64,000 nucleotides of DNA from the human T2T-CHM13v2.0 reference genome, Homo sapiens: NCBI RefSeq assembly GCF_009914755.1, contig NC_060935.1. One strand, written 5' to 3'. The position numbers were made by a program, and so were the translations under genes. Position 1 is the first letter of the stretch; every line of letters starts with the position of its first letter. Shown here in pieces: positions 33,117 through 54,790 of the stretch. Below the pieces are notes generated by a model that was not told the origin of the DNA, did no database searches, and worked only from the letters and a program-made list of their open reading frames with translations.

Positions 33117-34849
33117 TGGTAGAATAATGGTTAGAGAAAAATTCTTATATATATATGTATTGTCCAATCAGTTTACATAAAGATACTTTGCAGTCTCAAG
33201 GTGCCATTTCTTCCAGTTCAATACAGGCAGCATTTCTTCACTATCTTAAACTGTCAAATGTGCCATTCCTAACTAATTCTGTATTTTCCATCACAAGAAA
33301 ATTGAAGCAATGCTGCTATTATTCACAATACTATGACCCTTTGGAATATGTTTTGAGGAAATTATACAGATCTTCTTGCCTCCACAATACCCTAGTAGCA
33401 TTTATTTAATACTAGCCTCAGCATTACTCATGACAATGCATTATCCATTGTGTCGCCCACAGATGCTGGCTTCTGTTCACCTTCTCAAAGGTTCTTACCC
33501 TTCTCAGTTGATGGTGACCACAAATGCAATTCTTGATCAGAATATGCAGGAAAATGTGAACAATAATTCATTTTCTGGACATGTTAAATTTACTCTTCAC
33601 TTGACCACATATACTCTTTAGGCCATAATCACTGCATTCCCAAAGTCTTTCAATATTGATCATGGTCTCTCTAAGGATTCATATAATAGCATGCTCACAG
33701 GTATCTTCCATAACACTCCACAACAAAACAAATGTCTAAAAGAAAGACATTTTCATTTGTTCTTGGATTCAACATAGAAAACTTTTGAATTTTCAGAGCA
33801 ATAAGCCGTGTTGCAATGTATCATGTCAAGATAAACTCATTAATATAAAATACTCAAGTGGTAAGGCTAAAATTTGAATTACAAAACAATATTTATTTTA
33901 TATGTAAGATTACATATGTCAGGAGGTTCTATTCATAAACAGTGGATCTAACACATCAAGTGACATCTAAAAATCATTAGTTAATTATAAGTTTATTCTG
34001 AAAAATTTATTTTTATTACTTTTATTTCCACAAAGTCATTGTTACTGAAGTCCAGATTTTTACATGATAAATATTCTGTTGACATTAAAGCCAAATTAGA
34101 TAAACTCTTCTTGAATCACTGTAGTCTTAAAGTAGATTTTTTTTCCTAATTTAAATTTAGAAAACTTCATTCTGCTAAAGTAGTAGTAACTAGAATTGTC
34201 ACTAAAATCTTAAACCAATTACTGTAATTTGAAAATAAATGAACTTTACATATCATATCTAAATCTTGCAATGGTGTTGCATACAACGATGTATCTGTCG
34301 CAGAATATCTTAATTTTATCAAATAAAGCCCTACCAATTAAATTGTAAATATTTTCATTCCTTAATTCATTTCTTAAGTTTTTCTGCATTCAGAATTTTC
34401 ATGTTTGTACAGAAAACTGAAAACAGCAGTGTGTTGCTACTTTATTCCAAATTTGGAATGGGAAAGGTTTGCATCCTGAAAGAGCACCTGGAGTGGAAGG
34501 GAGAGTCAGGTGAAACAGGTTCAGTGAGAGGCTGTGTGCTCAACAGGGTGGAGTCCTGCTTTGAAACCAGCCTGCTGCTCTGCACACATTCTTCCAAGAT
34601 GGGCCCGGAGGTTCCTTCAAAGCAACACGGACTATGGATTTAGGGGTTCAAGACTCCTCCAGCTCTCCCTCTGCTTCTGCCGCTGCAGCAGGGATTGGAG
34701 GCGTTGCTTGCAGTGGGCTCTCTCCCCATTTCGCCTTCATGTCTCCCTATTCTGTTTTGCCTTTTGATCCTCCTAATCCTAGTCTCATTAATTTCTTCCA
34801 TTGTATTCCTTCAGCGTCTTCCTTTTCCTCGGATTTCCCACTTTCTTAC

Positions 34850-35274
34850 TGATTGGATCCCAGTGAAGACCCCAAGATTGCAGCCATCTTGACTGCCCTG
34901 ACTCAGCATTCCTGGATTCGCCAGTTCCCGCCATCCCAGCGGCCATCTTGGCTACCCTGACTTGGCATTTTCACCTGTTCCCGCCATTTATTCCCGCCAT
35001 CTCGGCAGCCACCTCGGATACCCTGACTCAGCATTTCCGGGTCCACCTTTCTTGTTCCCGCCGCCTCAGTGAACACGCATGCCCACTAAAGCACATCACT
35101 AAGGCACATCACTCATCTATATAAGCGCGCTGCACCTTTGGCACAGCGCGACTTCCCTGACCCTCCCCCTGCAGACCACTGAACCTCGCCGGAGAGCTCA
35201 ATTAAGAAGATTTTTGCCCTCTTTGTCTCGCCTCTCGGCCTTATTGATCCACGGTGCCCTTCCATTGCCTTTCA
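34850..35274 (+). repeat. 5' LTR
   Basis: TGATTGG...CTTTCA; TATA-like CTATATAA near 35117; poly(A) signal mutated to AATTAA (35200-35205); about 27 differences from the 3' LTR by manual count (about 6%). Confidence 0.97.
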
Positions 35275-35275
35275 T

Positions 35276-35293
35276 TGGTGCCAAAACCCGGGA
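35276..35293 (+). promoter_or_regulatory. Primer binding site, tRNA-Phe
   Basis: TGGTGCCAAAACCCGGGA versus TGGTGCCGAAACCCGGGA (complement of the tRNA-Phe 3' end): 17/18 match, directly after the LTR. Confidence 0.95.
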
Positions 35294-35443
35294 AGGGACA
35301 CCTCCTAAGCCCCCCAGAGGCTCGAGGGGACTCCCCTCCTGGTCAGATCAGGCTTCTTCCCCACGGCTACCCATCCGTTTCGTTCGGTTACTTGCCACCA
35401 GGTTGCAGCTGCTGCAGCCACTCCAGTCCAATTCGGCTGACGC

Positions 35444-35452
35444 TGGGTGAGT
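35444..35452 (+). promoter_or_regulatory. Probable retroviral major splice donor
   Basis: TGG|GTGAGT in the leader between PBS and gag. Confidence 0.65.
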
Positions 35453-35717
35453 ACCCCTCCTTTTTCCTTTTGTCTGTTCCTCCCTGGCTGAGAGTCATGC
35501 ACATGCCCAGGGAAAGTTTCCTTCCTCAAGGGAAGGCCAGTCCGGGCCACCAGGTGACCCAAGTTTACTTCCCCAGGGGAAGTCCAAATCGGCACTGACT
35601 ACTCGGAGACGTCTGTGTCTGAAGTAGCCGATCCGAGGCTCCAGGAGCCACGTGGTCTGAGTGACCCCAGAAGGATGCTTCTGCTGTCCCTCAGACCGTG
35701 GCCATAAAGGGAAGGGG

Positions 35718-37451
35718 ATGGGGTCCACCCAGTCCAAAATCGTGCAAAACACCCCCTTAGGGTGCCTCCTGCGCAACCTCCCAACTTTACAACTCGACCA
35801 AGATTTAAAACGAAAGCGACTAATTTTCTTCTGCACAGTTGCCTGGCCGCAATATACCTTAGACAACCAATCTCGCTGGCCCCCCGAAGGCACACTCAAC
35901 TTCAATATCCTAAACGACCTTACCAATTTTTGTCAGAAGCAAGGCAAATGGTCAGAAATCAAATATGTTCAAGGGTTCTGGGACCTTCACTCTCCACCAG
36001 ACCTCTGCGCCCCGTGTTCACTAGTGCAAGTCCTTTTAGCTAAAACCTCTCCCAAAACCTCTCCTGATCCGGACAAAGATGATCTTTCTCCTCTCTCAGA
36101 CCCCATAGATAACTTATCTTCCCCTCCCCTCCAAACTGCAGCCCATGCTCTGCCGCCACCATACGCTTCCCCACCCCCCTCGGCTCCACCTTCAGGTCAC
36201 GCACCGCCCACTTCCTCACGGGTCCCTCCTTCGCCAATCACGCCACCTCCTCCTCCACCTCCATCATCTCCTCCTCCTCCACCACTACCCTCACCTGCCC
36301 CTCCCAAGTCCCCTGTGGCCGCACACACCCAGGCCAGGCCGGCACTCCTTGCCCCGCTGCGCGAAGTGGCTGGAGCGGAAGGCATTGTTCGAGTTCATGT
36401 GCCTTTCTCCCTCGTTGATTTGTCCAAAATAGAAAGACACCTAGGCTCTTTCTCCACCAACCCTACTCTTTTCACAAAAGAATTTCACTATCTCTGTCAG
36501 GTTTATGACCTCACTTGGCACGATATCCATATTATTCTTACCTCCACCCTTTCCCCTGAGGAAAGAGAACGCATTCTAATTGCAGCACGGCAGCATGCCA
36601 ATCAATTACATCTAACAGACCCCAACGTACCCGTTGGAACACAGGCGGTTCCATCCACCGATCCAGAGTGGGATTACCAAGTTGGGCAAGCAGGGCGTCG
36701 CCGCCGGGACATAATGGTTCAATGCCTCCTGGCAGGGATGCAGGTGGCCTCCAATAAATCAGTCAACTTTGACAAACTAAAGGAAATTGTACAATACCCG
36801 GATGAAAATCCGGCAGTCTTCCTAAATCGGCTGACTGATGCCTTAGTCCACTATACCCGCCTAGATCCGGCCTCCCCTGCAGGGGCAACCATCTTGGCAA
36901 CATATTTTATTTCCCAGTCAGCAACAGATATTAGAAAAAAACTAAAATAGGCGGAGGAAGGCCTCCAAACCCCTATTCAGGACTTAGTAAAGCTGGCGTT
37001 CAAAGTTTTTAATTCCCGAGAGGAGGCGGCTGAGGTACAACAACAGGCAAGATTAAAACAAAAAGTTCAGCTCCAAACCCAGGCCCTGGCGGCTGCCGTG
37101 CAACCGGCATTCCCTAAGAGCCCAGGCAAGAAAGGTAGAGGTACAATCTCCCGGGCCCCATCTGGCGCCTGCTTCAAGTGCGGCAACTCGGGACACTGGG
37201 CCAGCCGGTGCCCTAGCCAACAGCAACCGTCCTGCCTGCCTTACAACTGTTTCAAGTGCGGCAATCCAGGTCATTGGGCAAAGCAGTGCCCAAACCCCAA
37301 GCCGCCAATGCGCCCGTGCCCTAACTGCCGACAAATGGGGCACTGGAGGTCAGACTGCCCCGGCCTCAGAGCGGCCGCTGTGTCTCCACATGGCGACCCC
37401 TCCCCGGATGGTGAAGGTACCTTCCAGCTCCTCCAACTGGACGATGACTGA
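35718..37451 (+). pseudogene. gag: ERV gag (MA, proline-rich p12-like region, CA, NC) with a single in-frame TAG at 36948-36950
   Basis: Myristoylation-type MGSTQSK start; PPPY and PSAP late motifs; MHR-like VQYPDENPAVFLNRL; the same frame continues past the TAG to three CX2CX4HX4C knuckles and TGA at 37449-37451. Confidence 0.92.
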
Positions 37452-40400
37452 AGAGGCCCAGACTCGGGAACCCCTCTCACCCTTGCCAAGCTCAGGGTAA
37501 TGCTTCAGGTAGCGGGTAAGTCCATTTCCTTTTTACTGGACCCAGGGGCTACCTACTCTGTTTTGCCATCTTTTAGTGGGCCCAGCCAACCCTCCTCAAT
37601 CTCTGTTATGGGGATTGATGGCACTCCCTCCACCTACCGCCAGACACCTTCACTGCCCTGCCGCCTAGACCACTCGTTCTTCACACACTCTTTCCTCATC
37701 ATCCCTTCATGTCCAGTCCCTCTCCTAGGGAGAGATCTCCTGACCAAGTTAGGAGCCTCAGTAGTCTTCCGGCCCGGCCCATCCACCCACCTAGCTCTTC
37801 TCCTACCCCTACTCTCAGCCGATACAGCAGCCCAGGCCTCTCCAACCCTGCCATTAGTCTTCCCTTCCCCCGTTGACCCCAAAGTTTGGGACACCAACAC
37901 TCCCGTTGTTGCCACACACCATAAGCCAGTCCTTATTAAGTTAAAGGACCCACTCAAGTTCCCTGCCCGACCTCAGTTCCCCATTTCCTTAGAGCACCGT
38001 GGAGGACTAAAACCCATTATTATTCGGCTTCTACAACAACACATCCTAATTACCACTAATTCTCCTTGCAATACTCCTATTCTGCCGGTACGAAAAGCCT
38101 CTGGGACTTACCGTCTAGTACAAGATCTTCGCCTCATCAACGAGGCAGTCATCCCTACAGTCCCGGTAGTTCCTAATCCATACACACTCCTCTCTCGCAT
38201 CCCCCCCAACAGGTCTCACTTCACTGTTCTGGACCTTAAAGATGCCTTTTTCTCTATCCCACTAGACCCCGCTTGTTACTTCCTCTTTGCTTTCACATGG
38301 GAGGACCCAGACACCGGCGTCTCTAAACAACTCACCTGGACGGTTCTGCTACAGGGGTTTAGAGACAGCCCTCATTTCTTTGGACAGGCATTGGCCCAAG
38401 ACCTCGCTCGCTGCCCTTTGGAGGCCAGTACTGTTATCCAATATGTTGATGACCTGCTCCTTTGCAGCCCCTCTGAGACAGATTGCCTTAAGGACACTTG
38501 TACTCTCTTAAACTTCCTAGGAAACTGAGGCTATAGAGTCACCCCGTCCAAAGCCCAACTATGTACCTCTAAAGTCACCTACTTAGGTATACGTCTCACC
38601 CCAAACTCAAAAGGCCTAACCTCAGACAGAATCAGCCTTTTACAAAATCTTCAGCCTCCACAAGATGCTGAAGATATTCTCTCCTTCTTGGGGCTAGTCG
38701 GCTTTTTCAGACATTGGGTCCCCAATTTCGGAGTCCTAGCAAGGCCCCTGTATCAGGCCACCAAACAGACCCCCCTTGGCCCACTGTCTGAGCCAAAACT
38801 AGTAGCCAATCTTTTCAATAAGCTTAAAAATTGCCTCATAACAGCCCCAGTCCTCTCACTCCCAAACCCGCTACGCCCATTCCATCTCTTTACCGATGAG
38901 CGGGAAAAGGTTGCTACAGGGCTCCTGGCCCAACTGGTAGGAAGAACACACCAGCCAGTAGCCTACCTTTCCAAGCAGCTCGAGCCCACTGTCCAGGGCT
39001 GGCAGCCGTGCCTGCAGGCTTTGGCTGCGGCAGCGAAACTCACCAAAGAGGCTCTTAAGCTTACCTTAGGGCACCCTCTCACTGTTTTCTCCTCACATAG
39101 GCTACAAGACTTACTCTCACACAAGTGCCTGAGTCACCTGACCCCCTCCAGACTCCAGCTATTTCATCTCCTGTTTATTGAAAACCCACACATCACACTT
39201 ACTACCTCTCCAACTTTAAACCCAGCTACCCTCCTCCCCTGCCCAGAACAGGACCCTGCATCCTTACACTCGTGTTCTTAAATCCTATCAACCCTACCCC
39301 CCGCGCACCTAAGCCTCCAAGACAACCCCATCCTAGATCCCCATCAGACCCTGTCTGTGGATGGTAGCTCCATCTCCACGCCGCAGGGCCAACGACGAGC
39401 GGCATACGCCGTGGTCACCTCATCTCAAGTAGTTGAGGCCAAACCACTTCCCACTGGTATAACCTCCCAGAAGGCAGAACTCATAGCTCTTACTAGAGCT
39501 CTAATTCTATCTAAAAACAAAAAAGTAAACATATACACTGATTCCAAGTATGCCTACTTAATAGCGCATACCTACTCCATTCTCTGGCAGGAACGGGGGT
39601 TCCTTACCACTAAAGGTACTCCTATTGTCAATGGACCCCTCATTGAGAAACTCATCCAGGTGCTAAAAGCCCCCACACAGGTAGCCATCATCCATTGCAA
39701 AAGCCACCAAAATTCTAAAGACCCTATATCATTAGGCAACAATTTCGCCAACACCACTGCCCGGGCCACGGCCCTCTTGGCCCCTTCCCCCACTCCTGTG
39801 TGCTTCCTCTCTCCTGCTTACACTCCCGATTACTCCCCTGAAGAGCTAGTCCACCTCATGGGTCGCTCAGGAGTAAAAACCAACTCCAATGAGCGCTTTC
39901 ATAGCCACACCCCTAACAAGAGTAATCAGGGCTGGATATTCGTGGATGATAGAGTAGTTCTCCCGTGCAGTCAGAAGAAACTCATCCTCACCGACATGCA
40001 CCGTTCGTTACATATAGGCCCAAAGGCTTTATATAACTTTCTTGAACCCATAATCTACCATCCTTCCCTTTATTCCTTACTGAAGCAAATACATCAGGAA
40101 TGCCATGTTTGCACAGTGGCAAACCCTCAGGGAAAACTTAAGCTCCCAGGTCCCTGTCACCAGCTAAGAGAACATCAGCCAGGAGAAGACTGGCAAGTTG
40201 ACTTCACCCACATGCCTAGACACAAAAAGTTCCGTTATCGCTCCTGGTCCTTCAGATTTCAGCTCCTCAGACTCCTCTACAGGGAAAGCCCTCCCTGACT
40301 CCCCCAGCCAAGATGGGTCTCTTTGTTTTCAGATGAGATCGGCAGCTTGGGGCCAGGTGCAGTGGATCACGCCTGTAATCCCAGGACTTTGAGAGGCCGA

Positions 40401-41706
40401 GGCGGGCAGATCACCTGAGATCGGGAGTTCAAGACACAGCCTGAGCAACATGAAGAAACCCCGTCTCTACTAAAAATACAAAATTAGGAGCTCTCCCTCT
40501 CCCTCTCCCTCTCCCCACGGTCTCCCTCTCCCTCTCTTTCCACGGTCTCCCTCTCATGCTGAGCCGAAGCTGGACTGTACTGCTGCCATCTCGGCTCACT
40601 GCAACCTCCCTGCCTGATTCTCCTGACTCAGCCTGCCGAGTGCCTGCGATTGCAGGCTCGCGCCGCCACGCCTGACTGGTTTTGGTGGAGACGGGGTTTC
40701 GCCGTGTTGGCCAGGCCGGTCTCCAGCCCCTAACCGCAGGTGATCCGCCAGCCTCGGCCTCCCGAGGTGCCGGGATTGCAGACGGAGTCTCGTTCACTCA
40801 GTGCTCAGTGGTGCCCAGGCTGGAGTGCAGTGGCGTGATCTCGGCTCGCTACAACCTCCACCTCCCAGCTGCCTGCCTTGGCCTCCCAAAGTGCCAAGAT
40901 TGCAGCCTCTGCCCGGCTGCCACGCCGTCTGGGAAGTGAGGAGCGTCTCTGCCTGGCCGCCCATCGTCTGGGATGTGAGGAGCCCCTCTGCCTGGCTGCC
41001 CAGTCTGGAAAGTGAGGAGTGTCTCCGCCCGGCCGCCATCCCACCTAGGAAGTGAGGAGCACCTCTTCCTGGCTGCCATCACATCTAGGAAGTGAGGAGC
41101 GTCTCTGCCCGGCCGCCCATCGTCTGAGATGTGGGGAGCGCCTCTGCCCCGCCGCCCCGTCTGGGATGTGAGGAGCACCTCTGCCCGGCCACCACCCCGT
41201 CTGGGAGGTGTGCCCAACAGCTCATTGAGAACGGGCCAAGATGACAATGGAGGCTTTGTGGATAGAAGGGCGGGAAAGGTGGGGAAAAGATTGAGAAATC
41301 GGATGGTTGCCGTGTCTGTGTAGAAAGAAGTAGACATGGGAGACTTTTCATTTTGTTCTGTACTAAGAAAACTTCTTCTGCCGTGGGATCCTGTTGATCT
41401 GTGACCTTACCCCCAACCCTGTGCTCTCTGAAACATGTGCTGTGTTCACTCAGGGTTAAATGGATTAAGGGCGGTGCAAGATGTGCTTTGTTAAACAGAT
41501 GCTTGAAGGCAGCATGCTCGTTAAGAGTCATCACCACTCCCTAATCTCAAGTACCCAGGGACACAAACACTGCGGAAGGCCGCGGGGTCCTCTGCCTAGG
41601 AAAACCAGAGAGCTTTGTTCACTTGTTTATCTGCTGACCTTCCCTCCACTATTGTCCTATGACCCTGCCAAATCTCCCTCTGTGAGAAACACCCGAGAAT
41701 TATCAA

Positions 41707-41738
<32 letters not shown>

Positions 41739-42530
41739 GTTCCGTTATCTTCTTACTCTAGTAGATACTTTCTCAGGTTGGATTGAAGCCTATCCCACCA
41801 CTCATGAAACAGCAGAGGTGGTAGCTTCAACCCTCATTGAACACATAATCCCGAGATTTGGCCTCCCTCGGACAATCCAATCTGAAAATGGTCCTGCTTT
41901 TATCTCCAAGATAGTCAAACAGGTGACAACCACACTTGGCGTTAACTGGAAGCTACACACTCCATACCATCCACAGTCTTCTGGAAAAGTGGAACGCGCC
42001 AACGGCCTTGTCAAACAACACCTAATCAAACTGGCTCTGGAGACACGCCAATCGTGGGTAACCTTACTTCCCTTTGCCCTCGCGCGGCTCCGGGCAGCAC
42101 CCCGAAGCCCCACAGGACTTAGCCCCTTTGAACTCCTATAGGGGCGCCCCTTCCTCTTTCAAGAGCTCCCTGTGAATACCCCACCTCTTAGCACGTACCT
42201 GCCCTACCTCACCCTGTTAAGGGAGCTGCTAAGAGAGCACGCCGACCGCAGCCTTCCAAAGCCCGGACCACTCGGCCCAGACAGTCTGGCCATAATAACC
42301 CCAGGAGATCAGGTACTAGTAAAAGACCTCCAGGCAAGAGGCCTCTCCCCCCGGTGGAAAGGCCCCATACGGTAATTCTTACAACACTGACGGCAGCTAA
42401 ACTTATAGGCCTTCCTTCCTGGTACCATATTTCCCATCTTAAGAGGGCACCTACACAAGATCAGGCCACTTGGACTGTCACCTCCCTCTCCCCAACCAAA
42501 CTGAAACTCTCTAAATCAAATACCGCATGA
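37452..42530 (+). pseudogene. pol: ERV pro-pol (PR, RT, RNase H, IN), in frame with gag; disabled by stops, an SVA insertion and a late frameshift
   Basis: PR LLDPGA (canonical DTG altered); RT LDLKDAFF, QGFRDSP and YVDD; RNase H DGS/AELIAL/YTDSKY; IN CHVC and WQVDFTHMP...VDTFSGWIEA split by the SVA; stops at 38526, 39279 and 42139. Confidence 0.93.
40240..41733 (+). mobile_element. SVA retrotransposon (SVA_D/E-like) with about 250-bp 5' transduction, inserted in integrase
   Basis: 16-bp TSD AAAAAGTTCCGTTATC at 40224-40239 and 41734-41749; (CCCTCT)n from about 40491, antisense Alu-like domain, short VNTR about 40907-41207, SINE-R, AATAAA and poly(A). Confidence 0.97.
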
Positions 42531-44365
42531 ATTCTCCGTGTGACAGGCTCCAACAATTTATTCAAGTTCTTCTCGAGGAAAGCTGGTCATTCCCTACTTT
42601 TGCTAACACACTTCACTGGCCTGAAAATCTGTTAGCCTATATAGACGAACTAGTGTGGCAAGGCTCCCTCCAGAACTTTCACCAACAAGAAGTTCGCTTT
42701 TTTTGTCTTGTCACTCTTCTTACTCTTGCACACCAGTCGTAGTAGACAAGCCCCCTCTCAGACTCCCTCTCACTGGGTTTTTTTCCTCACTGAGAATTGG
42801 AATTCCGGACAGGCAGTCTCCTCTAGACTAGTAGCCACGGCAGCATGCCCGCCAGCAAGGTGCCAGGCACCCATAACTTTCCTAGGTCTAAAATTCTCCT
42901 CCTTAGGCCCAAATACAAAAAACCCAGCGCTTTGCTTCCTGTATGATCAAAGTAACTCCAAATGCAATACCACCTGGGTCAAAGAAAATGTAGGCTGCCT
43001 GTGGCACTGGTGCAATATCCATGAGGCATCCATTTATAGAAAGGATACCATGTTCTCTGTCAACACTTCAGGAGGCTTTAACGGATTTAACCTCCAAATC
43101 TCTGACCCTTGAGACCCCCGCTGGGCCTCCGGTATAGATGGAGGACTATATGAGCACAGAACTTTTATGTATCCGGTAGCTAAGATCCGCATTGCCAGGA
43201 CCCTTAAAACCACTGTCACAGGGTTATCCGACTTAGCCTCCTCAATCCAGTCGGCCGAGAAGGCTTGCCAACCAGCTTCAACTGGCAGCTGACCAGGCCA
43301 TGTCCTCCCCCTTCTCGTGGTTAACTTTAATCTCAGAAGGTACACAACTGCTCCAATCCACAGGGGTACAAAACCTCTCCCACTGCTTCTTCTGTGCGGC
43401 CCTTGGAAGACCTCCCTTAGTGGCAGTTCCTCTCCCTACCCCCTTTAATTATACAAGAAATTCATCCACCCCTATACCACCGGTCCCGAAAGGACAGGTC
43501 CCACTATTCTCAGACCCTACAAGACACAAGTTCCCGTTCTGTTACTCCATCCCAAATGCCTCTTGGTGTAACCAGACCAGGATGCTTACCAGTGCCCCGG
43601 CACCACCCGGAGGCTACTTCTGGTGTAACTCCATGCTAACTAAAGTTCTTAACTCAACTGGTAATCACACCTTGTGCTTACCCGTCTCTCTCATCCCTAG
43701 CCTGACCCTATATAGTCAGGACGAACTTAGCCATCTGCTAGCCTGGACCGAGCCAAGGCCGCGAAATAAAAGCAAACGGGCTATTTTCCTACCCTTAGTA
43801 CTAGGCATCTCCTTAGCCTCCTCCTTAGTGGCATCAGGGCTAGGAACAGGAGCCCTCACCCACTTAATCCAAACATCTCAGGATCTGTCTACTCACCTGC
43901 AGTTGGCCATTGAGGCATCGGCTGAGTCCCTGGCCTCCCTACAGCAACAGATGACTTCGGTAGCACAGGTCACGGCACAGAACAGGCGGGCCTTAGACCT
44001 GCTTACGGCAGAAAAAGGAGGGACATGTTTATTCTTACAGGAAGAATGCTGCTATTAACGAGTCAGGGGTAGTTGAGACTAATTTACAAACTTTAAAAAA
44101 GATCCAAGAGGAGTTAAAACACTCCTACGACCCTCTCCGCCCTGGTCCTTCCTGGTGGTTTTCACCCGTGGTTCAACAGATGCTCCCTTTCCTTATCCCA
44201 ATTATAATTCTCTGTATAATACTGTGTTTTGCCCCAATCCTAGTACAGTTTCTCCGCCAGCGGATACAAGAAATCACCAGGGTCACTTTCAACCAGATGC
44301 TACTTCACCCTTATGTCCAACTGCCAACCTCTGATTTAGGCCCCCTCCCCAACGACGCCCCTTAA
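42527..44365 (+). pseudogene. env: ERV env (SU-TM), with frameshifts and stops
   Basis: SU CXXC (CFFC, 43384), basic cleavage site RNKSKR|AIFL, fusion peptide, ISD AQNRRALDLLTAEKGGT, CX6CC (CLFLQEECC), TM helix PFLIPIIILCIILCFAPIL; split over four ORFs. Confidence 0.93.
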
Positions 44366-44410
44366 CAGCAGGAAGTAGCCAGACGAATTCGTCGCCCCTT
44401 TTCTATAACC

Positions 44411-44425
44411 AAAAAGAGCTTGGAC
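44411..44425 (+). promoter_or_regulatory. Degenerate polypurine tract
   Basis: AAAAAGAGCTTGGAC directly before the 3' LTR. Confidence 0.6.
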
Positions 44426-44850
44426 TGATTGGATCCCGGTGAAGACCCCAAGATCGCAGCCATCTTGGCTGCCCTGACTCAGCATTCCCGGATTCGCCAG
44501 TTCCCGCCATCCCAGCAGCCATCTTGGCTACCCTGACTTGGCATTTTCGCCTGTTCCCACCATTTATTCCCGCCATCCGGACAGCCACCTCGGATACCCT
44601 GACTCAGCATTTCCGGGTTCACCTTTCTTGTTCCCGCTGCCTCAGTGAACACGCATGCCCACTAAAGCACGTCACTGAGGCACGTCACTCATCTATATAA
44701 ATGCGCTACACGTTTGGCACAGCGTGACTTCCCTGGCCTTCCCCCTGCGGACCAGTGAACCTCGCCCGAGAGCTCAATAAAGAAGATTTTTGCCCTCTTT
44801 GTCTCGCCTCTGGGCCTTATTGATCCACGGTGCCCTTCCATTGCCTTTCA
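44426..44850 (+). repeat. 3' LTR
   Basis: TGATTGG...CTTTCA, CTATATAAAT near 44693, intact AATAAA at 44776-44781, followed by TSD CTTAC. Confidence 0.97.
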
Positions 44851-44855
44851 CTTAC

Positions 44856-45115
44856 CGGGGTGACCCTTCCGGGACTCCGCTGGGATGTGGCGTCTCATCT
44901 GGAGCTCACCTCCTGAAGAGAAGCGTCCACAGCTTCACCGCCATGAAGGGAAAAAGGAGAGAGAGGCGGGGAGGGCCACGGAGTCCTGGTGGCACTCCGT
45001 GTTCCTTCACAAGTCTTTGTCCAGCGGGACAAGGTTTACAAGAAGCGCCAAGCTCTTCGCCAACCAAGTTCCTCCAGAGAAACTGAGAAGCGCGTTTGTG
45101 TTCCAGCAGAACGGA
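44856..45115 (-). other. Putative minus-strand first exon (CpG-rich, probably non-coding)
   Basis: Lies between a TATA/CCAAT promoter and a CCG|GTAAGT donor; contains YY1-like CATGGCGG and only short ORFs; TSS inferred from TATA spacing. Confidence 0.6.
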
Positions 45116-45300
45116 GTAAATTGCTTTGGGCTGTGTGTATTTAAAGGGGCAAGGAACGCAGTCTTCTGATTGGTGTGCCTCCGCTCGCCGTGTCCATGGT
45201 AACCAGCTAGCGCCCTGACCCGGCCCGGACCTCAGCTGCGGGGAATCTACCGGAAGCTAAGGAGAACAGCCCGCAGCCTACGCCGCGGGGCCCTGGTGAC
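45116..45300 (-). promoter_or_regulatory. CpG-rich Pol II promoter (TATA-like, NF-Y, RFX X-box, ETS)
   Basis: TATTTAAA 45138-45145; CTGATTGG (CCAATCAG on minus) 45166-45173; GTGTCCATGGTAAC 45190-45203; ACCGGAAG 45249-45256; many retained CpGs in non-repeat DNA. Confidence 0.7.
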
Positions 45301-46519
45301 CAGTTTGGTTAGTCTCGGGCTCTCGAGTCTGCCAGGAGTCTAACAACGCAGTTCTCCTCTTCGGCGGTCTTAGGTTTCCTCTTCAATGGCACAGATTTTT
45401 GCCCATCTGTCCTTCTTTTTCTCCCTACCTTTAGTTCCTGTGATTCAGGTGCCTACAGCAGGGAGACCTGCCACGGCGCGCAGGTGATGTCTTGAGACAT
45501 GGGGCTGGGGTCCAACAGAGTAAAGGCCAGGAATTTCTTTCTCCTGGTGATGAATAATTACTGGCCGCATTGATTGATAGCATATTCCATTCTAGACGCA
45601 GGACACACCTATGAAGTATGGTCTCTCTGATTAAATTTTATCAACGCATTGTGGTTAAGGAATGTGTCCAAGGTATAGACTGAGCAAAACCAAACAGGGA
45701 CGGGGTCAGACCATGTCTTAACCATGCAGGCAGGTTGTGGGAACGAGCTTGAGAAGTACATTTCTGAGTGCCTTAGACCAGATTGCCTGGGAGGGGAATG
45801 AAATGAGGATGATGAGGCTGGAAGGTCAGGCTGAGATCACCTGGGCTCCTGATCCCACCATTCTAGACCTGATTTCCACGTGGCCCCAGGTATCCCTGAG
45901 ATAGCTCACATGACTAGAATGTAGGAACGTGGTCCTGCCTCTCTTGGGAGGCAGTCTTGGCCTAGTCCCAAGGGCTCATTTGGAGAACAAGACAGATTTA
46001 TACTTCACTGAGCACCACTAAGTAGCATTAGGCCCTTTCAGCATCTAACTTGAAGTGGTCACAGTGAGAAGTCTATATCCTGTTCTTTTCTCTGCTCAGG
46101 TGTTCTTGGGATTCTCTGGGTCCTCTGGCTCACAGCCTTACGCACCTGCTCTTCCCTTCACAGCCTAGGAGACCTGGTCTTCTCTGGGTCAGATGCCCAT
46201 ATCATACAGTAGGAATAGGGGCTGTTCGATTTCAGAATGATTCCATCAAATCCAAGACAACAAGTTAGCTTAATTTAGGTATACTCCAACATTGTCAAAG
46301 CCTATTCAATAGAAAATATGTAACTTGTTTGTGCAAGTCTTTCATAATTATTTTCATGCCATGTTTCCGTTTCAATCTTAATAATTTCTTGCTTCTGTGA
46401 TAAGCTAAATCCTTCAAATCTTGGACCCCATAAGGTGTCAGAGACCAGGGCCAGGGCCCTGCTTTCCAAGGCCTAACAGGATCTGACTGTTGATTTCTAT
46501 TCTGGTTATCTATTGGTGT

Positions 46520-47092
46520 CATCTAAAAATAAGCATTTATTATACTAATGAATTTGTGCATTGTGAATTCAGAAAGGGAACAGTGGGGAAATCTTGTCTG
46601 CACAACAGTGACTGGGTCATGAGCTGGGATGGATTGAATTACTGGATGTGACCGTGACAGCTACGCTGTACCGTGTACCTGTCAGCTGAATTTCTTGGTT
46701 CTAACTCGTGTGACATGTACTGCAGCTGGGATGTCCAATATAACTTTTTTACTCACATGTCTGAGATGGTTCAAACATCAGAGCATGACTGAGCAGAGGC
46801 TTCTCTTTGTGAGTCTTTTCCATATAGCTAACTGGGGCTTCATCACAGCAAAACTGTCTCAGTGCAGTCAGATATCCCCCTAAACAACTTAACTAAGAGA
46901 TGCTGGTAGAAGCTACAAGGCCTCTTAGGAGCTTGTCTCAGAATTCAATCAGTTTCACTTCCAACACATTCTTTTAACCAAAAGTGAATCCAAGACTCAT
47001 CTCAGATTGAAAATAAGGGGATCATACAAAGTATTGATTCCTCACTAGCATGCTACATTGGGGGCGGGCATCTTTTGAGATCAGCTACAACA
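46520..47092. mobile_element. Old MaLR (MLT1-type) LTR
   Basis: GGTAGAAGCTACAAGGCCTCTTAGGAGCTTGTCTCAGAA...TCACTTCCAACACATTCT resembles the MLT1 core; highly diverged. Confidence 0.55.
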
Positions 47093-47139
47093 AATACTGA
47101 TGAGGTGAATTAAATTACTCTAAAAATTCTCATATTATT

Positions 47140-47720
47140 CAGCTTCTAGCCAAGATATGATGAAAGGGACTGAATTTGCTTTCCTAACTGACCTAAAACA
47201 AAACAAACCAAAAGTGGAATAAAATATAGTAAACAATGAGTTTCAAGACAGTAGACATCAGGCAAGTAAGGACAGTTATCCCTGAAATATGTGAAACAAA
47301 TGAGGCAGGCCCTACAACTACCCCAGTTTTCTGTCTTCAAAGAGTTTCCAGGCTGCAGTGCAGGGAAGCAAGACCAAATGGAACTCAGTGGAGTCCCTAA
47401 GTGGAGGAGATGTAATTGGAGTACAGAAAGACCAAACCCGCTAAAGCTCGCAAGAAAGAATACTGGAGAAAAGAAAGCTGCACACAGAGAGAAGCCTGAA
47501 AACCTACAGAGGATCTTCCTCAAGTAATGAATGAATGTGTGCAGATGAGGACACTAACCAAGGTGGAGGAAGGGAGGAGGGCACCTAAAAGAATTAGTGA
47601 GAACAGTATCCAATCAACACACAGGGCCTGAAATAGTATCTGTTTCCACCGTCGAGAAAGGAAAGCATTATAATTCATAAGGCATTGGGGAAAATTCTCA
47701 AATGGTCTTTCTTAGTAGTG
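47140..47720 (+). mobile_element. Old L1M 5' end fragment
   Basis: GCTTCTAGCCAAGATATG start and TTTCAAGACAGTAGACATCAGGCA are typical of L1MC/ME 5' ends. Confidence 0.5.
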
Positions 47721-53842: not shown

Positions 53843-54790
53843 ATGACAACACACCGAAATGACACCCTCTCCACTGAAGCTTCAGACTTCCTCTTGAATT
53901 GTTTTGTCAGATCCCCCAGCTGGCAGCACTGGCTGTCCCTGCCCCTCAGCCTCCTTTTCCTCTTGGCCGTAGGGGCCAACACCACCCTCCTGACGACCAT
54001 CTGGCTGGAGGCCTCTCTGCACCAGCCCCTGTACTACCTGCTCAGCCTCCTCTCCCTGCTGGACATCGTGCTCTGCCTCACTGTCATCCCCAAGGTCCTG
54101 ACCATCTTCTGGTTTGACCTCAGGCCCATCAGCTTCCCTGCCTGCTTCCTCCAGATGTACATCATGAATTGTTTCCTAGCCATGGAGTCTTGCACATTCA
54201 TGGTCATGGCCTATGATCGTTATGTAGCCATCTGCCACCCACTGAGATATCCATCAATCATCACTGATCACTTTGTAGTCAAGGCTGCCATGTTTATTTT
54301 GACCAGAAATGTGCTTATGACTCTGCCCATCCCCATCCTTTCAGCACAACTCCGTTATTGTGGAAGAAATGTCATTGAGAACTGCATCTGTGCCAATATG
54401 TCTGTTTCCAGACTCTCCTGCGATGATGTCACCATCAATCACCTTTACCAATTTGCTGGAGGCTGGACTCTGCTAGGATCTGACCTCATCCTTATCTTCC
54501 TCTCCTACACCTTCATTCTGCGAGCTGTGCTGAGACTCAAGGCAGAGGGTGCCGTGGCAAAGGCCCTAAGCACATGTGGCTCCCACTTCATGCTCATCCT
54601 CTTCTTCAGCACCATCCTTCTGGTTTTTGTCCTCACACATGTGGCTAAGAAGAAAGTCTCCCCTGATGTGCCAGTCTTGCTCAATGTTCTCCACCATGTC
54701 ATTCCTGCAGCCCTTAACCCCATCATTTACGGGGTGAGAACCCAAGAAATTAAGCAGGGAATGCAGAGGTTGTTGAAGAAAGGGTGCTAA
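53843..54790 (+). CDS. OR56A3: Class I olfactory receptor, family 56A (315 aa)
   Basis: Intact 7TM ORF with [33 protein letters not shown] and PAALNPIIYGVRT; N-glycosylation NDT; MTTHRNDTLSTEASDFLLNCF matches OR56A3 as remembered. Confidence 0.93.
   Translation: MTTHRNDTLSTEASDFLLNCFVRSPSWQHWLSLPLSLLFLLAVGANTTLLTTIWLEASLHQPLYYLLSLLSLLDIVLCLTVIPKVLTIFWFDLRPISFPACFLQMYIMNCFLAMESCTFMVMAYDRYVAICHPLRYPSIITDHFVVKAAMFILTRNVLMTLPIPILSAQLRYCGRNVIENCICANMSVSRLSCDDVTINHLYQFAGGWTLLGSDLILIFLSYTFILRAVLRLKAEGAVAKALSTCGSHFMLILFFSTILLVFVLTHVAKKKVSPDVPVLLNVLHHVIPAALNPIIYGVRTQEIKQGMQRLLKKGC

What the first reader, a model, noticed from the sequence alone, without database searches (positions are those of the whole stretch)
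44856..45300. Non-olfactory CpG promoter in an OR cluster, possibly the remote first exon of TRIM5
Seen: ETS (45249), RFX X-box (45190), CCAAT (45166) and TATA-like (45138) elements lie in the right order and spacing for a minus-strand start near 45115. This is unlike AT-rich O/E-homeodomain OR promoters, and no coding gene in the window explains it. Unverified recollection: Ensembl annotates a TRIM5 transcript (minus strand, 11p15.4) starting about 8-9 kb before the OR56A3 CDS and splicing across the OR cluster. If correct, an alternative promoter of an antiretroviral restriction factor abuts an ERV LTR, and its primary transcript is antisense to a whole provirus and to the OR52 genes. RFX suggests testis or ciliated-cell activity (inference).
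Basis: partly seen in the sequence, partly recalled or inferred. Interest (0 to 1): 0.8.

Follow-up and report, generated by a model that had tools for sequence, protein, structure and literature searches.

The report
Distant TRIM5 promoter beside a provirus
A small CpG-rich promoter inside an olfactory-receptor cluster starts a non-coding leader exon that public gene tables give to a long non-coding RNA and to the antiviral gene TRIM5 259 kb away, and an old retrovirus sits exactly in that exon's splice site; it is real but already annotated.

Summary
All four motifs are at the stated places. The set occurs together only here in the 64-kb window and in 0 of 20,000 local shuffles. They lie in a single-copy 625-bp CpG-rich block, 44856-45480. 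A TATA-like box and an initiator sit just upstream of the RefSeq lncRNA exon 44856-45112, which ends in a consensus donor (CCG|GTAAGT).

The TRIM5 link is supported by annotation. In a methylation paper's supplement, 3 of 3 probes give a TRIM5 start at hg19 chr11:5,959,849, taken from UCSC knownGene. This maps to window 45115. No transcript was seen, and the hub's RefSeq table lists only a lncRNA here.

TRIM5 exon 2 lies 258,761 bp downstream on the same strand. The leader would add two upstream reading frames.

The region is about 80% methylated in blood. Testis activity remains an inference.

New detail: a 10-kb class-I provirus (34850-44850, + strand) integrated exactly in the splice donor. 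Its 5-bp target duplication CTTAC is the complement of GTAAG.

Verdict: real, already annotated, uncharacterised in print; modest interest.

The parts
45249..45256 (+). ETS-type site ACCGGAAG, -141..-134 relative to the start at 45115; contains the CpG at 45251
   Evidence: only match in the window; CpG position
45190..45203 (.). RFX X-box-like near-palindrome GTGTCCATGGTAAC, -88..-75; probe CpG cg02574844 (45189) abuts it
   Evidence: only match in the window; probe mapping
45166..45173 (-). CCAAT box (CCAATCAG on the minus strand); the CCAAT core is at -58..-54
45138..45145 (-). TATA-like element TTTAAATA, -30..-23 relative to 45115
45113..45119 (-). Initiator-like TTACTCC (A at 45117); annotated starts are 45115 (knownGene TRIM5) and 45112 (RefSeq lncRNA exon)
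   Evidence: sequence; hub table. The Inr consensus is recalled.
44856..45115 (-). First exon, non-coding leader of 257-262 nt depending on the start
   Evidence: hub table (exon 44856-45112)
44906..44944 (-). Upstream ORF 1: ATG at 44944, 12 codons plus stop, wholly in exon 1
44856..44898 (-). Upstream ATG 2 at 44898, open to the exon end. If joined to TRIM5 exon 2 it gives a 32-codon ORF that ends 5 nt before the TRIM5 ATG, out of frame.
44850..44855 (-). 5' splice site GTAAGT. GTAAG (44855->44851) is the 3' copy of the provirus target-site duplication; the final T is the complement of the last LTR base.
44856..45480 (.). Single-copy CpG-rich block: 625 bp, GC 0.574, 36 CpG, o/e 0.70. It equals the blood DMR hg19 5,959,658-5,960,214 (window 44924-45480).
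44426..44850 (+). 3' LTR of the provirus (TG...CA, 425 bp). The RefSeq alternative first exon 44561-44842 lies antisense inside it.
   Evidence: hub table
34850..44850 (+). Class-I (gamma-type) provirus with gag, PR, RT, RNase H, IN and env. The primer-binding site after the 5' LTR is Phe-like (recalled rule). pol is interrupted by a GC-rich repeat insertion at about 40345-41745.
   Evidence: hub repeat list
34845..34849 (.). 5' copy of the target-site duplication CTTAC, that is a second GTAAG on the minus strand at the far end of the provirus
43897..44001 (-). lncRNA exon antisense to env TM. It has tandem AG acceptors (after 43998 and 44001) and a GTGAGT donor.
   Evidence: hub table; splice sites read

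Best explanation
This is a genuine, single-copy RNA polymerase II promoter of the weak-CpG-island type. It fires on the minus strand at 45112-45117. The core is a TATA-like box at -30 plus an initiator. Upstream lie an NF-Y-type CCAAT box (-58), an RFX X-box (-88 to -75) and an ETS site (-141 to -134). It produces a 257-262-nt non-coding first exon that ends in a consensus donor, CCG|GTAAGT. From there transcripts splice either to exons antisense to the neighbouring provirus and on into the OR cluster (RefSeq lncRNA LOC112268071), or, in a transcript of the UCSC knownGene table, towards TRIM5. TRIM5's ATG-bearing exon 2 lies 258,761 bp downstream on the same strand. As a TRIM5 leader the exon changes only the 5'UTR. 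It adds two upstream reading frames, so it would probably translate poorly. The promoter is heavily methylated, hence presumably off, in blood, where TRIM5 uses its own promoter. CpGs have been kept only in this 625-bp block, which suggests it is unmethylated and active in the germ line (inferred). A class-I provirus later integrated, antisense, exactly into the first five intron bases. The target-site duplication kept a GTAAG next to the exon, so the donor survived. Shown: the motifs, the single-copy status, the exon and donor, the annotation, the strand and distance to TRIM5, the blood methylation, the provirus and its duplication. Inferred: factor binding, germ-line activity, the uORF effect, and the share of transcripts that reach TRIM5 (I judge it small).
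For: The CpG-rich block bounded by CpG-poor flanks comes. The block is single copy: 1 of 1 match is itself, while the LTR control gave 32 matches down to 71% identity. The hub's RefSeq table has the exon 44856-45112 in the lncRNA models. A TRIM5 closest TSS at hg19 5,959,849 follows from 3 of 3 probes: -96, -74 and +8533. The gene table behind it is UCSC knownGene. The hg19-to-window mapping is fixed by CpGs at 45189 and 45211, by the DMR ends at 44924 and 45479/80, and by the OR56A3 start at 53843. TRIM5 exon 2 is on the minus strand with acceptor ...ATGCAG|G. The blood DMR of 5 probes is 81.2% against 77.5% methylated. The provirus LTR pair, the 5-bp duplication here and in 2 of 2 related copies, and the Pfam domains come.
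Against: No RNA, CAGE, chromatin or ChIP data could be consulted, so promoter activity rests on two annotation sets and on sequence. The RefSeq lncRNA models are predicted (XR_). The hub's RefSeq table does not list TRIM5 in this window, so at least one curated set does not accept the TRIM5 junction. Each motif alone is within chance for the window, and the motif set was chosen after looking. The left half of the X-box is degenerate. The 450K island column is blank for both probes here. About 80% methylation in blood shows inactivity there but says nothing positive about any tissue. The neighbouring LTRs have CpG o/e 0.69-0.73, so the o/e value alone is not proof of germ-line hypomethylation. 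A 259-kb first intron and two uORFs argue that TRIM5 output, if any, is minor. Four literature searches found no paper on this exon.
Confidence: 0.72

Rival explanations
1. The promoter is real but serves only non-coding RNAs that end inside the OR cluster. On this reading the TRIM5 assignment rests on a one-off or chimeric cDNA, such as read-through or template switching, carried into knownGene.
For: The hub's RefSeq table gives 6 lncRNA transcripts of LOC112268071 and no TRIM5 row for this window. The junction would need a 258,761-bp intron that crosses many genes. The Illumina RefGene columns are blank for the probes. No paper describes the exon. PMC3597737 analysed TRIM5 only as the alpha transcript NM_033034.1 (passages).
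Against: A public gene table places a TRIM5 start at exactly this initiator, consistently for 3 of 3 probes. Strand and order are right, and exon 2 has a good acceptor. I recall that Ensembl/GENCODE also extends TRIM5 to this point; that is not from a call.
Confidence: 0.2
2. Transcription here is driven by the provirus 3' LTR acting as an antisense or bidirectional promoter or enhancer. On this reading the motif cluster in the flank is incidental.
For: A RefSeq alternative first exon, 44561-44842, starts inside the LTR on the antisense strand (hub table). The RefSeq enhancer feature 43903-45102 covers the LTR. Every LTR of this family begins with an inverted CCAAT.
Against: The annotated starts at 45112-45115 lie 262-265 bp outside the LTR end (44850). 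They have their own TATA-like box and initiator at canonical distances. The block is single copy, whereas the LTR has 32 matches. The target duplication shows that the flank predates the provirus.
Confidence: 0.05
3. It is no promoter at all: a chance cluster of short motifs in a GC-rich patch, with annotation built on spurious or genomic-priming reads. Alternatively it is an enhancer whose transcripts are by-products.
For: Single motifs are at chance level. RefSeq marks 43903-45102 as an enhancer (hub table). The region is methylated in blood.
Against: In 0 of 20,000 shuffles did all four motifs appear, and the only tiles of 3191 that carry them are here. Two separate gene tables put a start within 5 nt of an initiator that lies 30 nt downstream of a TATA-like box. 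The exon ends in a consensus GTAAGT donor.
Confidence: 0.03

Closest known systems
The long TRIM5 transcript of UCSC knownGene (start hg19 chr11:5,959,849); by recollection also Ensembl/GENCODE, with the gene end at GRCh38 5,938,619
   Same: Same base position (window 45115), same strand, and 8,728 bp before the OR56A3 start.
   Different: Nothing differs: it is the same object. The transcript itself, its evidence and its exon chain were not visible here. The GRCh38 figure and the Ensembl assignment are recalled, not from a call.
RefSeq lncRNA LOC112268071 (predicted XR_ models)
   Same: Uses the same first exon, 44856-45112, and the same donor (hub table).
   Different: It ends about 58 kb away inside the OR cluster and uses provirus-antisense exons. 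It does not reach TRIM5.
Germ-line-specific weak or intermediate CpG promoters that are methylated in somatic tissue; RFX2- and NF-Y-dependent testis promoters (recalled classes)
   Same: A short CpG-rich block, about 80% methylated in blood, with an X-box and a CCAAT box near the start.
   Different: Germ-line hypomethylation, RFX or NF-Y binding and testis expression were not tested.
S-X-Y module of MHC class I/II promoters (RFX plus CREB plus NF-Y)
   Same: An X-box upstream of a CCAAT/Y box, with the same factor families.
   Different: The centres are about 26 bp apart, against about 34 bp as recalled for HLA-DRA. There is no CRE-like X2 between them and no S box (sequence). It is not a member.
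LTR-derived alternative promoters of host genes (e.g. EDNRB, APOC1, listed as reference 84 of PMC3597737)
   Same: An ERV LTR lies at an alternative 5' end of a host gene, and one alternative first exon does start in the LTR.
   Different: The main start is in unique flanking DNA. The LTR is antisense and intronic.
TRIM58-OR2W3/OR2T8 chimeric transcripts (PMC3566163, passages seen)
   Same: A TRIM gene and neighbouring OR genes share transcripts across a cluster.
   Different: There a TRIM promoter feeds OR exons. Here a promoter inside the OR cluster would feed a TRIM gene, on the opposite strand to most of the ORs.

Membership tests
CpG island | At least 200 bp, GC at least 0.5, CpG o/e at least 0.6 (Gardiner-Garden and Frommer; criteria recalled) | tested here: met
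   44856-45480 is 625 bp with GC 0.574 and o/e 0.70. 44856-45300 has GC 0.593 and o/e 0.72.
CpG island | Listed as island, shore or shelf in the UCSC-based 450K annotation | tested here: not met
   The island column is blank for cg13902645 and cg02574844 in the supplement of PMC7649340. It is a weak island only.
TRIM5 alternative first exon | A public gene table places a TRIM5 start here | tested here: met
   3 of 3 probes give hg19 5,959,849, which is window 45115. The table is UCSC knownGene.
TRIM5 alternative first exon | Upstream of, and on the same strand as, the ATG-bearing exon 2 of TRIM5, with usable donor and acceptor | tested here: met
   Exon 2 is on the minus strand at G000:C11:5,737,620-5,738,094 with acceptor CAG|G. 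The donor is CCG|GTAAGT. They are 258,761 bp apart.
TRIM5 alternative first exon | The exon 1 to exon 2 junction is seen in RNA | not testable with these tools
   No EST, RNA-seq or CAGE resource is available here.
TRIM5 alternative first exon | Listed under TRIM5 in the current RefSeq annotation of T2T | tested here: not met
   The hub table lists LOC112268071, OR52E5, OR52Q1P and OR56A3 for this window. There is no TRIM5 row.
Olfactory-receptor promoter | AT-rich, with O/E (TCCCNNGGGA-like) and homeodomain sites (recalled) | tested here: not met
   GC is 0.57-0.59. Of 19 matches with at most 1 mismatch in the window, none lies in 45113-45300; two one-mismatch matches lie inside exon 1. Homeodomain sites were not scanned.
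MHC S-X-Y module | Fixed X1-X2-Y spacing with a CRE-like X2 and an S box (recalled) | tested here: not met
   By reading: the X-box and CCAAT centres are about 26 bp apart, and the spacer ACGGCGAGCGGAGGCACA has no CRE-like heptamer.
LTR-derived promoter | The transcript start lies inside the LTR | tested here: not met
   The starts at 45112-45115 are 262-265 bp beyond the LTR end at 44850. Only the alternative exon 44561-44842 starts in the LTR (hub table).
Class-I (gamma-type) endogenous provirus | Two LTRs (TG...CA), a target-site duplication, and gag, pol and env domains | tested here: met
   The LTRs match at 398 of 425 positions. The duplication is CTTAC on both sides, and 5-bp duplications are also found in 2 of 2 related copies. 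Pfam finds Gag_p30, zf-CCHC, RVP, RVT_1, RNase_H, rve and TLV_coat in 7 of the 9 frames submitted.

The most novel reading that the evidence does not exclude
The exon and its GTAAG donor predate the provirus and form a germ-line-active leader of TRIM5. The retrovirus landed in the first five intron bases, and the donor survived through the target duplication. Since then every primary transcript from this promoter reads a complete class-I provirus antisense, and further on reads a TRIM5-like exon, presumably TRIM22, antisense as well. On this reading the locus couples a restriction-factor promoter to the production of antisense RNA against an ERV in germ cells, much as a piRNA-cluster-like trap would, while also supplying TRIM5 to a tissue where its interferon-type promoter is quiet.
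Probability: 0.05. Interest if true: 0.7.

Novelty: already known. Interest (0 to 1): 0.3.

Why it matters
TRIM5 is studied almost entirely through its canonical promoter beside TRIM22. A second start 259 kb away, methylated in blood and built from TATA, CCAAT, X-box and ETS elements, would mean the gene can be switched on by a different programme, possibly in germ cells. The resulting leader would damp translation through two uORFs. It also explains why probes and variants deep in the OR cluster get labelled 'TRIM5' in array and GWAS annotation, as in the Alzheimer blood DMR 'OR56A3; TRIM5' of PMC7649340. Such labels should not be read as evidence about the canonical TRIM5 gene. The provirus sitting exactly in the 5' splice site, with the target duplication preserving the donor, is a neat natural example of a splice site surviving a retroviral integration. 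None of this changes a current concept. The exon is already in public gene tables.

Tried and rejected
- Papers: 'LOC112268071' gave 0 papers and 'cg13902645' gave 0 papers.
- Bare coordinates as search terms matched only unrelated numbers in the 20 of 165 papers listed.
- TRIM5 delta / NM_033092 gave 32 papers. The 20 listed were seen as listings only, and none concerns this exon by title or abstract start.
- TRIM5 + alternative promoter + first exon gave 8 papers. Only PMC3597737 was relevant, and its passages treat only the canonical exon 1.
- OR56A3 + methylation gave 6 papers and nothing new.
- One search was badly specified (min_terms 2) and useless.
- PMC3566163 turned out to concern TRIM58, not TRIM5.
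- Rfam had no family at gathering score in 43000-47500.
- I looked for the TRIM22 RING exon in L003 (T2T 5,743,001-5,753,000). None was found among 10 frames of at least 90 aa. It was then located at 5,754,092-5,754,499 (+) by a protein search. The name TRIM22 is inferred from gene order in PMC3597737.
- The third probe, cg12628672, could not confirm the hg19-to-T2T offset. The predicted position 36582 is not a CpG; the nearest are 36570 and 36588. An indel between the assemblies probably lies in between. It still gives the same hg19 TSS.
- The S-X-Y module and an OR-type promoter were considered and rejected (see the membership test).
- The ERV family was not named. The tRNA-Phe reading of the primer-binding site, and the identification of the weaker LTR matches on X and 7q with HERV-Fc1 and HERV-Fc2, are recollection only.

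Full report
**1. The observation**

The sequence shows all four elements at the stated places:
- TATTTAAA at 45138-45145
- CTGATTGG at 45166-45173
- GTGTCCATGGTAAC at 45190-45203
- ACCGGAAG at 45249-45256

Read on the minus strand the order is ETS, X-box, CCAAT, TATA-like. It is followed by an initiator-like TTACTCC with its A at 45117. The Inr and TATA consensus rules are recalled.

Each motif alone is no more frequent in the window than in shuffles. The counts are 1 against 0.34, 1 against 0.56 and 5 against 3.27.

The combination is unusual. Of 3191 tiles of 188 bp, only three carry all four looser patterns, and all three overlap this site. None of 20,000 dinucleotide-preserving shuffles of 45113-45300 carried all four, and 5 carried three. 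The motif set was chosen after looking, so this is support, not a P value.

**2. Composition and copy number**

The block 44856-45480 is 625 bp with GC 0.574, 36 CpGs and o/e 0.70. Upstream DNA (45481-46685) has o/e 0.21. The DNA that adjoined it before the provirus arrived (33600-34849) has o/e 0.26.

A search of the whole assembly with 44856-45400 found only itself, 1 match. The same search with the neighbouring LTR found 32 matches down to 71% identity. The block is therefore unique DNA, not a repeat or a solo LTR.

The island is weak. The island column of the 450K annotation is blank for the two probes inside it.

**3. The exon**

The hub's RefSeq table gives an exon 44856-45112 on the minus strand in models of the lncRNA LOC112268071. 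Its 3' end is followed by GTAAGT (CCG|GTAAGTGA).

Relative to a start at 45115:
- the TATA-like box begins at -30
- the CCAAT core is at -58
- the X-box is at -88 to -75
- the ETS site is at -141 to -134

Other lncRNA exons lie antisense in the provirus. Exon 43897-43998/44001 has tandem AG acceptors and a GTGAGT donor. An alternative first exon, 44561-44842, lies inside the 3' LTR (hub table; splice sites read). No Rfam family is present in 43000-47500.

**4. The TRIM5 link**

In the supplement of PMC7649340, three probes carry 'closest TSS' = TRIM5:
- cg13902645 at hg19 chr11:5,959,945, distance -96
- cg02574844 at 5,959,923, distance -74
- cg12628672 at 5,951,316, distance +8533

All three give a start at 5,959,849. 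The paper's reference list includes Price et al. 2013, the evident source of these columns. Its methods say the closest TSS was taken from the hg19 UCSC knownGene table (PMC3740789, passage).

The same rows give OR56A3 at -8631, that is 5,968,576. This equals the OR56A3 coding start at window 53843 if window = hg19 - 5,914,734. With that offset the two probes fall on CpGs at 45211 and 45189. The ends of the paper's DMR (5,959,658-5,960,214) fall on CpGs at 44924 and 45479/80.

I also recall that NCBI/Ensembl give the TRIM5 gene end as GRCh38 5,938,619; that figure comes from no call.

Three points count against the link:
- The Illumina RefGene columns are blank for these probes.
- The hub's current RefSeq table has no TRIM5 row in this window.
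- No RNA evidence could be inspected.

**5. Geometry towards TRIM5**

The RING/B-box exon of TRIM5, which holds the ATG, lies on the minus strand at G000:C11:5,737,620-5,738,033. It is preceded by 61 nt of 5'UTR and by a polypyrimidine tract ending ...ATGCAG|G at 5,738,094. The intron from the donor at 44856 would be 258,761 bp.

It would cross the provirus. It would also cross the OR52 genes of the hub table: 6 of 8 are on the + strand and hence antisense, and 2 are on the minus strand.

A paralogous RING exon also lies in the path, at 5,754,092-5,754,499 on the + strand (67% identity). By gene order this is TRIM22, since TRIM5 and TRIM22 are head-to-head about 5 kb apart (PMC3597737, passage).

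Joined to exon 2, the leader gives a 5'UTR of 318-323 nt with two upstream ATGs. The first, at 44944, opens a 12-codon ORF. The second, at 44898, opens a 32-codon ORF that crosses the junction and stops 5 nt before the TRIM5 ATG, in another frame. The protein would be unchanged. Translation would probably be damped (inference).

**6. Tissue**

The only datum found is that the five-probe region is 81.2% against 77.5% methylated in whole blood of two patient groups (Table 2C of PMC7649340). The promoter is therefore most likely off in leukocytes.

CpG retention is confined to this block, while both old flanks are depleted. This points to hypomethylation in the germ line, and together with the X-box and CCAAT box to germ-cell activity. 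This is inference. The young LTRs next door have similar o/e (0.69-0.73), so the value alone proves little.

**7. The provirus**

A direct repeat pair bounds a + strand provirus: 34850-35274 and 44426-44850, 425 bp each, with 27 differences of which 13 are CpG transitions.

Pfam finds Gag_p30, zinc knuckles, protease, RT, RNase H, integrase and TLV_coat env domains in 7 of the 9 frames submitted. The integrase region is interrupted by a GC-rich repeat insertion (hub repeat list 40345-41745). A primer-binding site follows the 5' LTR; I read it as tRNA-Phe-like from memory.

The LTRs start TG and end CA. CTTAC flanks them on both sides, at 34845-34849 and 44851-44855. Two related copies, a provirus on C2 and a solo LTR on C14, likewise have 5-bp duplications, CCAAT and GTTAC.

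CTTAC is the complement of GTAAG. The integration was therefore into intron positions +1 to +5 of this exon's donor. Before integration the site read CCG|GTAAGAAAGT. It now reads CCG|GTAAGTGAAA, and a spare GTAAG lies at the far end of the provirus. Whether the exon was already in use then cannot be told without other primates.

With substitution rates of 1-2.3 x 10^-9 per site per year (recalled range), the LTR divergence gives about 14-33 My on all sites and 7-17 My without CpG transitions.

**8. Comparison and verdict**

It is not an OR-type promoter. It is not an S-X-Y module, because the spacing is wrong and X2 is missing. It is not an LTR promoter, because the start lies 262-265 bp outside the LTR.

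It matches two existing annotations and is therefore already known as an annotated feature. However, four literature searches found no paper that describes it.

The open parts are how much of the output reaches TRIM5 and in which cells the promoter is on. The splice-site integration is a new descriptive detail of modest interest.

Noticed in passing
window 40345-41745: A GC-rich (0.62-0.67) repeat insertion interrupts the integrase region of the provirus. It holds two 149-nt tandem copies, 40906-41054 and 41062-41210, 82% alike. It looks like a composite VNTR-type retroelement. The family was not identified.
   Followed up: partly
window 34849-34856 and 44425-44432; L004, L005: Each LTR of this family begins TGATTGG, invariant in the 5 LTR starts aligned. 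On the minus strand this gives a CCAAT at the outer edge of the LTR; in this provirus it reads CCAATCAG with the preceding base. That accounts for 2 of the 5 CCAATCAG matches in the window.
   Followed up: partly
window 43897-44001: The lncRNA exon antisense to the env TM region has two AG acceptors 3 nt apart (exon ends at 43998 and 44001) and a GTGAGT donor. This is exonisation of antisense env sequence.
   Followed up: partly
window 36570-36595: Probe cg12628672 (hg19 5,951,316) does not land on a CpG with the offset that fits the promoter probes; the nearest CpGs are 6 and 12 bp away. hg19 and T2T therefore probably differ by a small indel between about 36.6 kb and 44.9 kb, perhaps in the tandem-repeat insertion.
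   Followed up: no
window 46685 (minus strand): One RefSeq model (XR_007082409.1) starts 1.57 kb further upstream and reads through the promoter as one long first exon, 44856-46685. That start lies in CpG-poor DNA and was not examined.
   Followed up: no
L002 7551-8262 (G000:C11:5,740,551-5,741,262): A GC-rich stretch lies about 2.5 kb upstream of TRIM5 exon 2, on the side towards TRIM22. It has long stop-free frames on both strands. Its nature is unknown.
   Followed up: no
G000:C17:29,207,429-29,210,501: Eleven partial matches to this LTR lie within about 3 kb on C17, in a tandem-like array of LTR fragments.
   Followed up: no
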